This document shows, one piece after another, positions 4,802 to 35,445 of a stretch of DNA of 64,000 nt. The DNA is taken from the NCBI GenBank assembly GCA_964016885.1, contig OZ024742.1, forward strand, positions 354,516,001 to 354,580,000, in the 5' to 3' direction. A program made the translations under genes and the position numbers. Within the stretch, counting starts at the first letter, position 1, and each line of letters opens with the position of its first letter. The notes beneath the pieces were generated by a model that saw only the letters and a program-made list of their open reading frames with translations, did not search any database and was not told the origin of the DNA. The stretch comes from Eledone cirrhosa. Its lineage: Eukaryota.

Positions 4802-5000
4802 GGTGGATTGGCAGTATCGGTAGAGGGTCGGGCGCCATGTTTTGACGTATATAGTTACGGCCCTTGCTATTCTGAGTTCAAATCCGGCCGAGGTTAACTG
4901 TGCATTTCATCATTACGGGGTTGATAAAATAAAGTACCAATAATGCACTGGGTAATTGCTGGTCTTGTGCCAACAGTAGAAACAATTATTATTTTTATTA
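4802..5000 (+). mobile_element. tRNA-derived SINE with (TTA)n tail (family S1)
   Basis: A-box-like TGGCAGTATCGG, B-box GAGTTCAAATCC, conserved central block GCATTTCATCATTACGGGGTTGATAAAATAAAGTACC. Homologous to 29037, 34998, 35232 and 37348. Confidence 0.85.
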
Positions 5001-6889
5001 CGCATCATTACTGCTTCACCGAGCACAGCTCTGTGTGCCTTGGTTATGAACAGTATAGTTTTTGGTGGTGTTGTTTCTATTGTATTTATTGTACATTTCT
5101 TAATATGTGGGTAGTGTCTAGTAGCGCTATCTTTTGTATGCTGTATATACCTGTAAGTCCTGTGATTTTGGCTATGTATTTTTCTCTGGGTTTTATTTTT
5201 TATCATTCATAGAGAAACTATTAATATAAATATTATTTCTGTTTTCAATTTCCGCATTTGAGATATTTCTATCTCTAGATCTATATATTTGGATAATGTC
5301 TCTATTTCCTTGGAAGATATATTGTCGTAGTGGGGATAGATACATTTAGTAGAATGCATTACTTTTCTTTGTGGTCTTTGACTATAATATCTGGTTGTAT
5401 ATGTATGTATTGGCATATCCCAGAGAATGTTTGTTTTATCATTCTATGGGACATTTTTTCTAGCGTGTGTTTGTGCCATTTCTTGCTTTAGGTATGCTGG
5501 TATAATTCCCACTGTATTGTGGTTGTGGCTAGATTCTTTTTTGGTTAGTGCGGGGCAGCCAGATACTATATGGTTCATTGTTTCTTCCCTATCTCCACAT
5601 ATTCTACAGTTACTTATAGTGCTTGTTGTCATTATGTACTTCTAGTAGTTTCTTGTAAGTAGACGTCGGTCCTACGTAGCAATTAGAAATCCTTCCGTCC
5701 CAGCTTTTAGACCAGTGCTTCGGAACCAGTTTTGTGTTAGTTTTTGATTGTCCTCTTCCTTTCTATTTAACATTTTGGGTATTGGCCATGTAAACATTTT
5801 TCTTGACATTTTACATAGCATTCTGGGTGTCAGTTTTCAATTTAAATTTCCGGTCTTTCACAATTTCTACTTTTTTCTCTCTTTGTTTTCATTATCCTCG
5901 CAATTAGTCCAGTTGTTGTTTCGAATTTGTTGGCTTCTTTGAAGACAGAAAACAGTTTTTTTGTTCATGTTTCGTGGCTATTTGTATCATGTTTCCTTTG
6001 TTTTTTATTAGGTATTTTTGTAGTCCTACAGTAGTTATCTATATGAGATTTATAGTTGCATAAGTCCCCTTCCTCCTTGTGTTCTTGATAGGTATACTCT
6101 TCTACATCTGATTATGTATGGTGTATTCTAAATACGGTCATTATTTTTTTTGCTTTTCTCTATCTATTCCAGCTAGGGTCTGTTCTTTTAGTGTCCAGTA
6201 CAAAATGTTAAGAATGTAGTTCATTACTAGAATTGCAAATGGGTTGATGCCTAACACCTTATTCTTTGCATTTAGTTCACATTTGAGCATTTACCTGATT
6301 CTTCCATAGTATTATTTCCTAAACTTTTCTTTCATTTGTGTGTGTGTTCATCTAGTTCATTGATTCTTAAGTATATGTATGTCTAAGTTTGATCAAGTTC
6401 TCTTATTTCTGTTTCTTTATCTAAAATGATAAACATGCTTTTCTCTTTAAAGCTGCTTCGGCATATGTTTCTAATCCAAATTTCATAACATTTTTTCTGA
6501 ATCTGTGTACAGTTTGGAGCATTGTTAGGACTTGTCTTTCACATGTAGCCTAGAGTTTAGATTAACCATATATAGGAGATGGTTAATTTATACCCTAGCC
6601 TATTTCTGATTTGAGTTTCAGATAGTGCAGTTAATGCTAGGCAAAAAAGCAGTGGTGTTAGGGAGTCTCTTTGAAATATGCCTCTGTTGATTGTGATAGG
6701 CTCTATTTTTATTGTTTTATCCTTTATTTGTGTCAGCAAAATTTTTGCCATTTACTCATGGCGTGTTTCATAAATGTTGTTATTTTTGCTGATACACTAT
6801 TCATGTCTAGTGTTTTCAGTATACATGTTTGTGGAATATTGTCAAATGCTTTTTGGTCATCAACCGAAACCTTGCGGAATATTTTTCTG
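5001..6889 (-). mobile_element. Heavily decayed, 5'-truncated R4/Dong-like non-LTR retrotransposon (copy A)
   Basis: Fragments RGIFQRDSLTPLLFCLAL (RT), CRICGDREETMNHIVSGC (CCHC finger) and KYIDLEIEI (RLE region); many stops and frameshifts; TTA at both ends. Confidence 0.85.
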
Positions 6890-6925
6890 TTATTATTATT
6901 ATTATTATTATTATTGTTATTGTTA

Positions 6926-7290
6926 TTCCTTGAATCTCAGTCATTGATGTTGGTTAACTGGAAAGTCCGTTGGATTGAATATCAAGCCACTACCTGCAGC
7001 CTCAGATATTCAGGACGTATCGGAGGGTTCTTGCCGTTCCAAGCAAGCATGCCTTTTGAAGCGTTCCAAAAAGCGTGAAGGGGCCGATTTTCTTTAACCA
7101 TCCCTGGAAACCTTTGGAGATAGTCCCCAGTGCGCCTATGACAATCGGGATCACTTTGACTTCATGGCAGTTCCAAATCCTTTTCACCTCCCACTCTAGG
7201 TCCTGGTATCGGTTAATTTTCTCCCTCTCCTTCTCTTGCACTCTCGTGTCGAACGGGCAGGCCACATCCACAATCAGGCACGATCTTTTT
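6926..7290 (-). mobile_element. 5'-truncated 3' end of R4/Dong-like family B (copy B1)
   Basis: Encodes the RLE C-terminus DVACPFD...RYQDL...PIVIGALG; nearly identical to the 3' end of 11682-16198; flanked by (TTA)n. Confidence 0.92.
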
Positions 7291-7417
7291 TATTATTATT
7301 ATTATTATTATTATTATTATTATAATTATTATTATTATTATTATTATTATTATTATTATTATTATTATTATTATTATAATTATTATTATTATTATTATTA
7401 TTATTATTATTATTATT
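7291..7417. repeat. (TTA)n microsatellite between elements
   Basis: Direct reading; similar tracts at 6890, 7778, 11650, 16199, 20519, 20821, 26519, 29178, 34978 and 35213. Confidence 0.98.
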
Positions 7418-34977: not shown

Positions 34978-34997
34978 TTATTATTATTATTATTACA

Positions 34998-35230
34998 GGG
35001 AGGTGGATTATCCGTATCGTTAGATCATCGGTCAACATGCTTTGCGCTATTGACTTTCACCTCTATAATTTCTGAGTTCAAATTCGGCCGAGGTTTGTTT
35101 AGCCTTTCATCCTTATGGGGTCGATAAAATGAAGCACCATTAATGTACTCGGTTCGAAAACATGGATTTTCCACCCATTAAAATCAATGACCATGTGCCT
35201 ATATCAAATACCATTATTATTATTATTATT
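34998..35230 (+). mobile_element. Diverged S1-type SINE with (TTA)n tail
   Basis: GAGTTCAAATTC B-box and GCCTTTCATCCTTATGGGGTCGATAAAATGAAG block. Confidence 0.8.
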
Positions 35231-35231
35231 G

Positions 35232-35445
35232 CAGGGGGGTGTAGCAATACCTGTGGAGCGTCTGACAACATGCTTCGCGCTATATAGTTAGAGCTCTTTA
35301 TGTTCTGAATTCATCTAGCGCCGATATTAAGCTTTGCCTGTCATCCTCGCTGGGCCGATAATATAAGGTACCAGTTATGTACTGAAGTTGGTTTAATCGG
35401 CTTTCCCTTTCCCCAAAAATTGTTGGCCTTTCCAAATTTGCTGAC
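35232..35445 (+). mobile_element. Older diverged S1-type SINE
   Basis: Degenerate B-box TGAATTCATCT, CTTTGCCTGTCATCCTCGCTGGGCCGATAATATAAGGTACCAG block and TTGTTGGCCTT tail. Confidence 0.65.

What the first reader, a model, noticed from the sequence alone, without database searches (positions are those of the whole stretch)
4802..35445. 30-kb (TTA)n-targeted retrotransposon pile: R4/Dong-like copies all one way, Tx1-like copies all the other, meeting head-to-head
Seen: six RLE-type copies (three families) on the - strand from 5001 to 20518, then three APE-type Tx1 copies and S1 SINEs on the + strand from 20862 to 35445. Almost every junction is a (TTA)n tract, no element is nested inside another, and the two clades are not interleaved. 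The leftmost TTA is the tail of a SINE. Known: Dong (R4 clade) targets (TAA)n, and several Tx1-clade families are microsatellite-specific; opposite-strand use of one repeat recalls SART and TRAS in TTAGG. Inference: two unrelated endonucleases nick opposite strands of the same microsatellite, each insertion regenerates target, and something polarises the array. Divergent 5' ends at ~20.5 kb might form a bidirectional promoter or piRNA source.
Basis: partly seen in the sequence, partly recalled or inferred. Interest (0 to 1): 0.7.

Follow-up and report, generated by a model that had tools for sequence, protein, structure and literature searches.

The report
Two retrotransposon clades share one microsatellite
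A 30-kb stretch of an animal genome, likely an octopod's, is a pile of decayed jumping genes of two unrelated kinds joined by TTA repeats and facing opposite ways, likely because each kind cuts a different strand of that repeat, while their neat left/right split is likely chance helped by a weak bias rather than a function.

Summary
Window 4802-35445 has six RLE copies of three families on minus, and three APE copies plus a bodiless APE-type head and four SINEs on plus. Eleven of 13 internal junctions are (TTA)n, all in one polarity. The RLE copies fit R4/Dong: Myb-like N-terminus, CCHC, RLE. Their relatives carry (TAA)n in sense (43 of 80 loci, against 3 with TTA), often at the 5' junction, so the repeat is a target. 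The APE copies are L1-group and Tx1-like; their targeting rests on this window only (4 of 4 5' ends abut TTA). Opposite orientation follows from strand-specific nicking (inferred), as for SART/TRAS. The head-to-head split has p=1/84 to 1/210 under random order, at a locus picked after the fact. Copy decay does not fit a centre-growing model, so no polarising mechanism is shown. The piRNA/promoter idea is untested, and transcripts from the centre would be sense. Two weak new leads: Tx1-like heads resemble the heads of one Dong family (nhmmer E 2e-4 and 4e-3, reciprocal), and the SINE's last ~22 nt resemble the Tx1-like 3' end. Verdict: new variant of a known kind.

The parts
4802..5000 (+). SINE (~185 bp) with short degenerate ATT tail at 4986-5000; likely seed of the array; no TTA at its head
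5001..6889 (-). R1: 5'-truncated, heavily decayed RLE copy, third family (27-33% aa to R4); 3.0-3.6 breaks/100 aa
6890..6927 (+). (TTA)n tract, R2 tail / R1 5' junction
6928..7289 (-). R2: 3' fragment of family B, 97% identical to R5, broken at an A6 run
7290..7417 (+). (TTA)n tract, about 43 units
7418..7776 (-). R3: 3' fragment of family B, closer to R6 (24 of 39 diagnostic sites), broken at the same A6 run as R2
7777..7848 (+). (TTA)n/(CTA) tract
7849..11651 (-). R4: full-length family A RLE element; RT, CCHC, RPD..D..K endonuclease; short leader (~0.2 kb); 3 stops, no frameshift
11652..11683 (+). (TTA)n tract
11684..16197 (-). R5: full-length family B RLE element; Myb-like N-terminal domain near 14808-15035; ~1.05-kb leader whose first ~200 nt weakly resemble the Tx1-like heads; 3 stops, 1 frameshift
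16198..16280 (+). (TTA)n tract
16281..20519 (-). R6: full-length family B copy (88-89% to R5), same 5' end as R5; head 20320-20465 is the best non-self match of a Tx1-head profile; 6 stops, 3 frameshifts
20520..20538 (+). (TTA)n tract between two 5' ends: target remnant, not a tail
20539..20819 (+). bodiless head homologous to the 5' ends of T1 and T3
20820..20861 (+). (TTA)n tract, imperfect
20862..26519 (+). T1: full-length Tx1-like element; ORF1 with CCHC knuckle, ORF2 APE-RT-zf; ends AATAAA-GAAATC then ATT; 1.4-1.7 breaks/100 aa
26520..26578 (+). (TTA)n tract, T1 tail / T2 5' junction
26579..29036 (+). T2: Tx1-like copy truncated at both ends, 83% to T3, 68% to T1
29037..29200 (+). headless SINE fused to T2 without TTA; ATT tail to 29200
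29201..34976 (+). T3: full-length Tx1-like element; APE motifs, RT, zf-RVT; 1.0 breaks/100 aa
34977..34995 (+). (TTA)n tract
34996..35230 (+). SINE (long form) with ATT tail at 35213-35230
35231..35445 (+). older SINE copy; no TTA at its 3' end

Best explanation
The stretch is a pile of six R4/Dong-type copies on one strand and Tx1-like copies and SINEs on the other, joined by (TTA)n, that likely grew by repeated independent insertion into one repeat, likely seeded by a SINE tail, with the two endonucleases predicted to nick opposite strands and each insertion predicted to leave new target on both sides. Shown: anatomy, uniform repeat polarity, different ages of the copies, and (TAA)n at the 5' junctions of Dong relatives elsewhere. 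Inferred from target-primed reverse transcription: the RLE protein primes from the TTA-reading strand and the APE protein from the TAA-reading strand, which fixes each clade's direction. Inferred and weak: the left/right split is a by-product, most likely chance, perhaps helped by new copies landing in the tail of a same-direction neighbour. No host function is needed.
For: 11 of 13 junctions are (TTA)n and no such tract lies inside an element. The tract at 20520-20538 sits between two heads. R1, R2, R3 and T2 are 5'-truncated yet abut the repeat. In 80 loci of RLE relatives, 60 TAA-sense tracts in 43 loci against 6 TTA-sense in 3; TAA upstream in 23, downstream in 21, both in 7; 7 loci hold same-direction tandems joined by TAA. 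Copies are 68-97% alike within a family and carry 0.3-3.6 breaks/100 aa, so they are separate insertions of different ages. Laid contigs show a 3'-high, 5'-low depth slope for R5 and T1, as expected of dispersed 5'-truncating LINE families (depth is not a copy number). Literature passages: Dong targets (TAA)n in most insects, molluscs and cnidarians (PMC7998251); SART and TRAS use opposite strands of one repeat (PMC7265360); repeated insertion at a preserved target makes tandems (10.1101/158386).
Against: No locus of the Tx1-like family outside the window was found, so its targeting rests on four 5' ends here, two of which abut a neighbour's tail. Perfect segregation is unlikely under random order (1/84 for 6+3, 1/210 for 6+4) and less likely if long tails attract insertions (0.0006-0.002). 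An own-tail bias explains order and ages together 6-11 times better than random order if selection of the window is ignored. Two of four SINEs with heads have no TTA upstream. One RLE relative (L030) is flanked by TTA in sense. The locus assembly is unverified.
Confidence: 0.7

Rival explanations
1. The split is real and made by co-directional insertion: each clade prefers a tract downstream of a same-direction element (read-through transcription or recognition of its own 3' end), so once two heads face apart each half grows outward with its own clade.
For: A 5- to 20-fold own-tail preference raises head-to-head order to 6-18% and gives the best joint fit to order and ages. T1 is more decayed than T2 and T3, and R6 than R5 and R4. 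7 of 80 relative loci are same-direction tandems.
Against: Same-direction tandems also follow from strand-specific targeting alone. The model makes tail-to-tail order about 2-3 times as often as head-to-head. Given head-to-head order, the age pattern fits random order better (0.028 against 0.005-0.017). For SART1 and TRAS1, flanks did not affect cutting (PMC7265360 passage). One locus only.
Confidence: 0.3
2. The split comes from nick geometry: each enzyme needs repeats upstream of the nick, so most of the tract stays at the new element's head and the live tract remains between the two clades.
For: SART1Bm needs three upstream repeats and inserted late in a 21-unit tract (PMC7265360 passage). 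In simulation this bias gives head-to-head order in 7-88% of runs.
Against: It predicts the youngest copies and the longest tract at the centre. The central tract is about 6 units and the central copies are more decayed than their outer neighbours; P(age order | head-to-head) is 0-0.0025.
Confidence: 0.1
3. For the Tx1-like family ATT is only a tail made during reverse transcription, and its copies sit here because the region tolerates insertions.
For: SINEs in the window have ATT tails without upstream TTA (4802, 37537). No outside copy could be examined.
Against: All 4 APE-type 5' ends, including the truncated T2, start at a TTA tract, none inside another element, although tracts make up under 2% of the array.
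Confidence: 0.12
4. The divergent centre is a selected bidirectional promoter or piRNA source of the host.
For: Two related heads face apart across 19 bp of TTA, a layout that could drive divergent transcription.
Against: Outward transcripts would be sense to all long copies, whereas silencing clusters mostly give antisense RNA (recalled knowledge). The heads are decayed and one has no body. Nothing here shows conservation of the locus.
Confidence: 0.05

Closest known systems
Dong / R4 clade (Dong, DongAg, DongBg; ostracod Dong1/2)
   Same: Single ORF with Myb/SANT-like N-terminus, no N-terminal zinc finger, RT, CCHC, RLE; (TAA)n on both sides in sense; known from molluscs, and Dong-R4 is abundant and recently active in Octopus vulgaris (PMC7998251, PMC13282606).
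   Different: Three families piled in one tract; family B has a leader of 1.0-1.17 kb (0.04-0.7 kb in the relatives measured) whose first ~200 nt resemble Tx1-like heads.
Microsatellite-specific Tx1-clade families (Kibi (TC)n, Koshi (TTC)n, crocodilian (TTCC)n/(TTTC)n)
   Same: Two ORFs, CCHC ORF1, APE-RT ORF2 of the L1 group, insertion at a simple repeat (PMC4494074, PMC3812793 passages).
   Different: Target here would be (ATT)n; no such Tx1 family turned up in my paper searches. No poly(A) tail: AATAAA is followed by 6-7 nt and then ATT.
SART and TRAS in (TTAGG)n
   Same: Two families insert into one repeat in opposite directions (PMC7265360).
   Different: Both are APE elements, of the R1 clade (clade recalled), and the repeat is telomeric; here an RLE and an APE element share an interstitial microsatellite.
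Utopia and Keno in U2 snRNA genes
   Same: An RLE and a Tx1-clade APE element evolved the same target in parallel (PMC4640811).
   Different: They share the same site and 3' flank, so the same direction, in a gene; here opposite strands of a microsatellite.
Tandem TE arrays by repeated insertion (R1, DMRT1B, jockey, P in Drosophila)
   Same: Target preserved at each junction; 5'-truncated members (10.1101/158386).
   Different: Those are one family per tandem; this pile has two clades, at least five LINE lineages and SINEs, and no sign of expansion by unequal exchange.

Membership tests
R4/Dong clade | Single ORF with RT followed by CCHC and PD..D-type restriction-like endonuclease | tested here: met
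   RVT_1; C-x2-C-x8-H-x4-C and RPD..D motifs read in R4 and R5 (R5 has RPE, R6 RPD); only R2 proteins among solved structures
R4/Dong clade | Divergent Myb/SANT-like N-terminal domain without zinc fingers (PMC7998251) | tested here: met
   Model of R5 N-terminus, pLDDT above 90 over residues 21-80; best matches mostly Myb/SANT domains, top Z 6.2, rmsd 2.3, 62 aligned (middling Z, Foldseek gave nothing at E<=0.001); Atlas lead Rap1-Myb 0.86; no C2H2 motif seen in the N-termini
R4/Dong clade | (TAA)n target in sense at both junctions | tested here: met
   5 of 6 window copies have full tracts on both sides, R1 a degenerate one at its 3' end; relatives 43 of 80 TAA against 3 of 80 TTA
R4/Dong clade | RT phylogeny with named Dong/R4 references | not testable with these tools
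   Quick tree groups R1, R4, R5/R6 with unnamed TAA-type relatives; no named Dong or R4 sequence was returned
Tx1 clade | ORF2 with APE endonuclease, RT and C-terminal zinc domain, L1 group | tested here: met
   Exo_endo_phos, RVT_1, zf-RVT; APE motifs in T3; relatives hit LINE-1 ORF2p at 1e-50 to 1e-72 against R2 at 1e-24 to 1e-29
Tx1 clade | ORF1 with gag-type CCHC knuckle | tested here: met
   C-x2-C-x4-H-x4-C in T1 and T3; Atlas leads to CCHC/ZCCHC3-type RNA-binding clusters, 0.86-0.90
Tx1 clade | RT phylogeny inside Tx1 rather than L1 proper | not testable with these tools
   No named Tx1 reference among hits; tree only shows a clade with an Argonauta protein. Hence 'Tx1-like'.
Tx1 clade | Target-site preference across genomic copies | tested here: inconclusive
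   4 of 4 5' ends in the window abut TTA; no outside copy found
SINE mobilised by the Tx1-like LINE | Shared 3'-terminal sequence between SINE and partner LINE | tested here: inconclusive
   Free local alignment of 45-nt ends: 0 of 8 pairs significant (some ends set a few bases off). Tail-anchored, last 22 nt: 8 of 8 pairs at or under 34/1000 shuffles and 81/3352 real segments, best 0/3352; RLE ends 1 of 16 pairs under 50/1000 shuffles. Length chosen after looking; signal fades at 30-40 nt.
piRNA cluster / bidirectional promoter | Mapped piRNAs or divergent start sites | not testable with these tools
   No RNA holder listed

The most novel reading that the evidence does not exclude
An octopod Tx1-like LINE targets (ATT)n, mobilises the abundant SINE whose tails seed new targets, shares that repeat with Dong on the opposite strand, and has passed its 5' promoter module to one Dong family across the APE/RLE divide; mixed piles then sort head-to-head because each clade inserts in the direction of local transcription.
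Probability: 0.15. Interest if true: 0.72.

Novelty: new variant of a known kind. Interest (0 to 1): 0.42.

Why it matters
If the Tx1-like family is (ATT)n-specific genome-wide, it adds a target to that clade and gives a natural pair of unrelated endonucleases reading opposite strands of one repeat, a clean system for studying target-strand choice and for safe-site insertion tools. SINE tails seeding LINE targets would help explain TE hotspots in octopus genomes. A 5' module shared between an APE and an RLE lineage would be an unusual cross-clade promoter exchange. The head-to-head order is directly testable in any chromosome-level octopod assembly.

Tried and rejected
Whole genome: none held, so the decisive copy table could not be made. 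Other loci of the Tx1-like family: none in metagenome contigs, viral contigs or prokaryote genomes. RLE loci: none in viral contigs or prokaryote genomes. Laid reads and contigs: rows at the repeats were skipped, so flanks of other copies were not shown. No RNA holder listed. Rfam: no match near a gathering score in 4000-38500; ARAGORN: none. An HDV-like ribozyme in the R4 leader was suspected by eye; folding was no better than shuffles (z 0.85) and it was dropped. Single-sequence model of the R5 N-terminus was low-confidence and its fold search empty. Homology of family-B leaders to Tx1 ORF1 beyond the head: only low-complexity matches. Majority letters of other T1 copies at 8 head positions did not move T1 towards the Dong heads (1 of 8). 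Under strict scoring the Tx1-Dong head similarity is not significant, nor is T1-T3. Head-side nick bias and tail-length bias were simulated and disfavoured. Segmental duplication of R5-R6 as source of R2-R3 was considered; R3 is only 90% like R6 while R2 is 97% like R5, which does not fit one event. Four look-ups of earlier findings returned nothing. No complex prediction was run.
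Full report
Setting. The window is AT-rich animal DNA with many (AT)n runs. No whole genome is held. The best named relative of the APE elements is an Argonauta hians protein (59% identity), so the host is likely an octopod; this is an inference.

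Anatomy. Self-comparison, translation and Pfam give 14 pieces between 4802 and 35445: a plus-strand SINE; six minus-strand RLE copies (R1 5001-6889, R2 6928-7289, R3 7418-7776, R4 7849-11651, R5 11684-16197, R6 16281-20519); a 281-bp piece; T1 20862-26519; T2 26579-29036; a headless SINE; T3 29201-34976; and two SINEs. Of the 13 junctions, 11 carry at least four perfect TTA-phase units, one is the short degenerate tail of the first SINE and one (T2|SINE) has none. No tract of four units lies inside an element, and no TAA-phase tract exists on plus anywhere in the window; three further TTA places outside the array (1042-1078, 42847, 51839) are unoccupied. The 281-bp piece is a plus-strand head homologous to those of T1 and T3 (0 of 500 shuffles; 0 of 1272 real segments under all three scorings). 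Reads of other copies continue as Tx1 past 29036 and as a full SINE before 29040, so that fusion is likely local. The right end has no TTA.

The RLE copies. R4 and R5 hold RT, a C-x2-C-x8-H-x4-C knuckle and the RPD..D endonuclease motif. The R5 N-terminus, folded with 56 relatives, is a confident helical domain whose best structural matches are mostly Myb/SANT domains (top Z 6.2, rmsd 2.3 over 62 residues; middling Z; Foldseek found nothing at E<=0.001). This is the architecture described for R4/Dong, whose target is given as (TAA)n in most insects, molluscs and cnidarians (PMC7998251, passages). A quick tree separates R4, R5/R6 and the long-branched R1 (careful search unfinished, no named references). 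In the 80 best of 196 loci of relatives from metagenome contigs there are 60 TAA-sense tracts in 43 loci against 6 TTA-sense tracts in 3. TAA lies upstream of the first match in 23 of 80, downstream in 21, on both sides in 7; many contigs end too early to show either. Seven loci hold same-direction RLE pieces joined by TAA; none of the 80 holds an APE element or a reversed copy. One relative, L030, has TTA in sense on both sides. In the window the tract at 20520-20538 lies between two 5' ends and cannot be a tail. The repeat is therefore a target for this lineage.

The APE copies. ORF2 has Exo_endo_phos, RVT_1 and zf-RVT with the usual APE motifs (motif roles recalled), and relatives match LINE-1 ORF2p far better than R2. 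ORF1 has a CCHC knuckle. T1 and T3 end in AATAAA, 6-7 nt, then ATT. No named Tx1 reference was available, so I call them Tx1-like. All four 5' ends, including truncated T2, start at a TTA tract. No outside copy was found, so targeting is shown for this window only. Known microsatellite targets of the Tx1 clade are TC, TTC, TTCC and TTTC (PMC4494074 passages and section 15; PMC3812793 passages). Searches found no ATT-specific family, but the library lacks Repbase and Kojima and Fujiwara 2004 (not read), and Figure 3 and the supplements of PMC4494074 were not seen.

Mechanism. By target-primed reverse transcription (established), a minus-strand element primes from the plus, TTA-reading strand and a plus-strand element from the TAA-reading strand; so the two enzymes are predicted to nick opposite strands, as SART and TRAS do in TTAGG (PMC7265360 passages). 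An RLE and a Tx1 element sharing a target is known from Utopia and Keno (PMC4640811 passages), and tandems from repeated insertion at a preserved site from Drosophila (10.1101/158386 passages). Copies differ in decay: R1 3.0-3.6, R4 0.26, R5 0.36, R6 0.82, T1 1.4-1.7, T2 0.65-0.70, T3 1.0 breaks per 100 aa; R2 and R3 are too short to date. None is intact. Summed contig depth in run X1 falls about twelvefold from 3' to 5' along both R5 and T1 (not a copy number), as expected of dispersed truncating families. Dong-R4 (1129) and L1-Tx1 (421) recent insertions are abundant in O. vulgaris (PMC13282606, parts 1-2 of 3 read; PMC8967140 passages); targets and arrays are not discussed in what I read.

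Is the split real? Under uniform choice of tract, head-to-head order has p=1/84 (6+3) or 1/210 (6+4), 0.024 or 0.010 either way; the plus-strand SINE at the far left is taken as the seed. The window was picked after the fact, and a genome with this many copies should hold many piles. Simulations (toy models with my own parameters): weighting by tract length favours tail-to-tail order; a nick bias that leaves the tract at the head gives head-to-head in 7-88% but predicts the youngest copies in the centre, and the chance of the observed age order given head-to-head is 0-0.0025; a 5- to 20-fold preference for a same-direction neighbour's tail gives 6-18% and the best joint fit (6-11 times uniform), yet given head-to-head order uniform choice fits the ages best (0.028). 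One locus cannot decide; I put chance first. For a promoter or piRNA role there are no data, and outward transcripts would be sense to every long copy.

Lead 1, shared heads. The first ~200 nt of T1, T3 and the bodiless head align collinearly, in sense and at the same distance from the junction, with the heads of R6 and R5 but not R4. With mid scoring T3-R6, T1-R6 and spacer-R6 exceed all 1272 real-segment scores; T1-R5 and T3-R5 are weaker (30 and 15 of 1272) and spacer-R5 is not significant; with strict scoring the signal mostly goes, as does T1-T3. A profile of the three APE heads finds R6's head as best non-self hit in 64 kb (E 1.8e-4, next 3.3; reversed-sequence control 0.029; R5 not among the nine rows shown); a profile of R5/R6 heads finds T3 (E 0.004), the spacer (0.11) and T1 (2.1, below one chance hit). 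Identities are 46-54% across clades and 49-56% among APE heads in AT-rich DNA. Family B's leader is 1.0-1.17 kb to the Myb-like motif, against 0.21 kb in R4 and 0.04-0.69 kb in the 6 of 13 loci where the motif was found; 57 of 120 family-B relatives (hand-picked: at least 1090 aa on contigs under 5 kb) have a median of 504 non-ORF bases on their contigs. Capture of a Tx1 5' module by a Dong family is possible; convergence of AT-rich promoters is not excluded. One search found no paper on such exchange, a narrow search.

Lead 2, SINE partner. A free local comparison of 3' ends was not significant (0 of 8 pairs). Anchored at the tail, the last 22 nt of T1 and T3 resemble all four SINE ends (8 of 8 pairs at or under 34/1000 shuffles, best 0 of 3352 real segments), RLE ends mostly do not (1 of 16), and the signal fades at 30-40 nt. 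The test was chosen after looking. Two of the four SINEs with heads lack upstream TTA. SINEs commonly share 3' ends with partner LINEs (PMC4824008 passages). The SINE's family name was not established.

Lead 3. R2 and R3 break at the same A6 run though R2 follows R5 (32 of 39 diagnostic sites) and R3 leans to R6 (24 of 39), with one site shared by the fragments alone: likely a truncation hot spot by pairing with the repeat.

Verdict. Each ingredient has a precedent; the combination (RLE and APE on opposite strands of one microsatellite, a possible ATT-specific Tx1-like family) was not found in ten paper searches. The polarity that raised the first score is not shown to need a mechanism. Passages of PMC10294476, PMC9004415 and PMC5753468 were seen and added nothing. 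New variant of a known kind; interest 0.42.

Noticed in passing
window 20320-20465 (-), 15960-16197 (-) against 20539-20770, 20862-21070, 29201-29400 (+): 5' heads of family-B Dong copies resemble the heads of the Tx1-like copies; reciprocal best non-self profile hits, weak.
   Followed up: yes
window 26498-26519, 34955-34976 against SINE ends near 4985, 29177, 35212, 37352: Last ~22 nt of the Tx1-like elements resemble the SINE 3' ends, a hint that this LINE mobilises the SINE.
   Followed up: partly
window 7280-7290 and 7768-7777: Two fragments from different subfamilies are truncated at the same A6 run.
   Followed up: partly
window 29036/29037: Tx1-like copy fused to a headless SINE without repeat or clear microhomology; deletion or template switch.
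   Followed up: partly
L030 43-86 and 4023-4387: An RLE relative flanked by (TTA)n in its own sense on both sides, i.e. the opposite strand from all other relatives.
   Followed up: no
L024 1-60, L025 1-60: RLE relatives whose sequence after the 5' (AAT)n reads like the start of a tRNA (by eye).
   Followed up: no
L009, L012, L015, L028, L061, L062, L079: Same-direction RLE tandems joined by (TAA)n in other animals' contigs.
   Followed up: partly
window 22904-22912 and 31316-31324: Both full Tx1-like copies have GGTAAGT, like a splice donor, just upstream of the ORF2 start.
   Followed up: no
window 43674-49342: LTR retrotransposon on minus with RT and RNase H matches and ~450-bp terminal repeats 96% identical; frames broken.
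   Followed up: no
window 39360-40900: About 1.5 kb of (AT)n.
   Followed up: no
window 1285-1588, 2087-2207, 2235-2650: Near-perfect palindromic repeats bounded by (AT)n, MITE-like, with further copies near 60445-60588.
   Followed up: no
window 53433-54601 and 62199-63149: Tandem units of 466 and 456 bp, 98-99% identical.
   Followed up: no
window 37348-37542 (-): A fifth SINE copy outside the array with no TTA at its head and a very short tail.
   Followed up: partly
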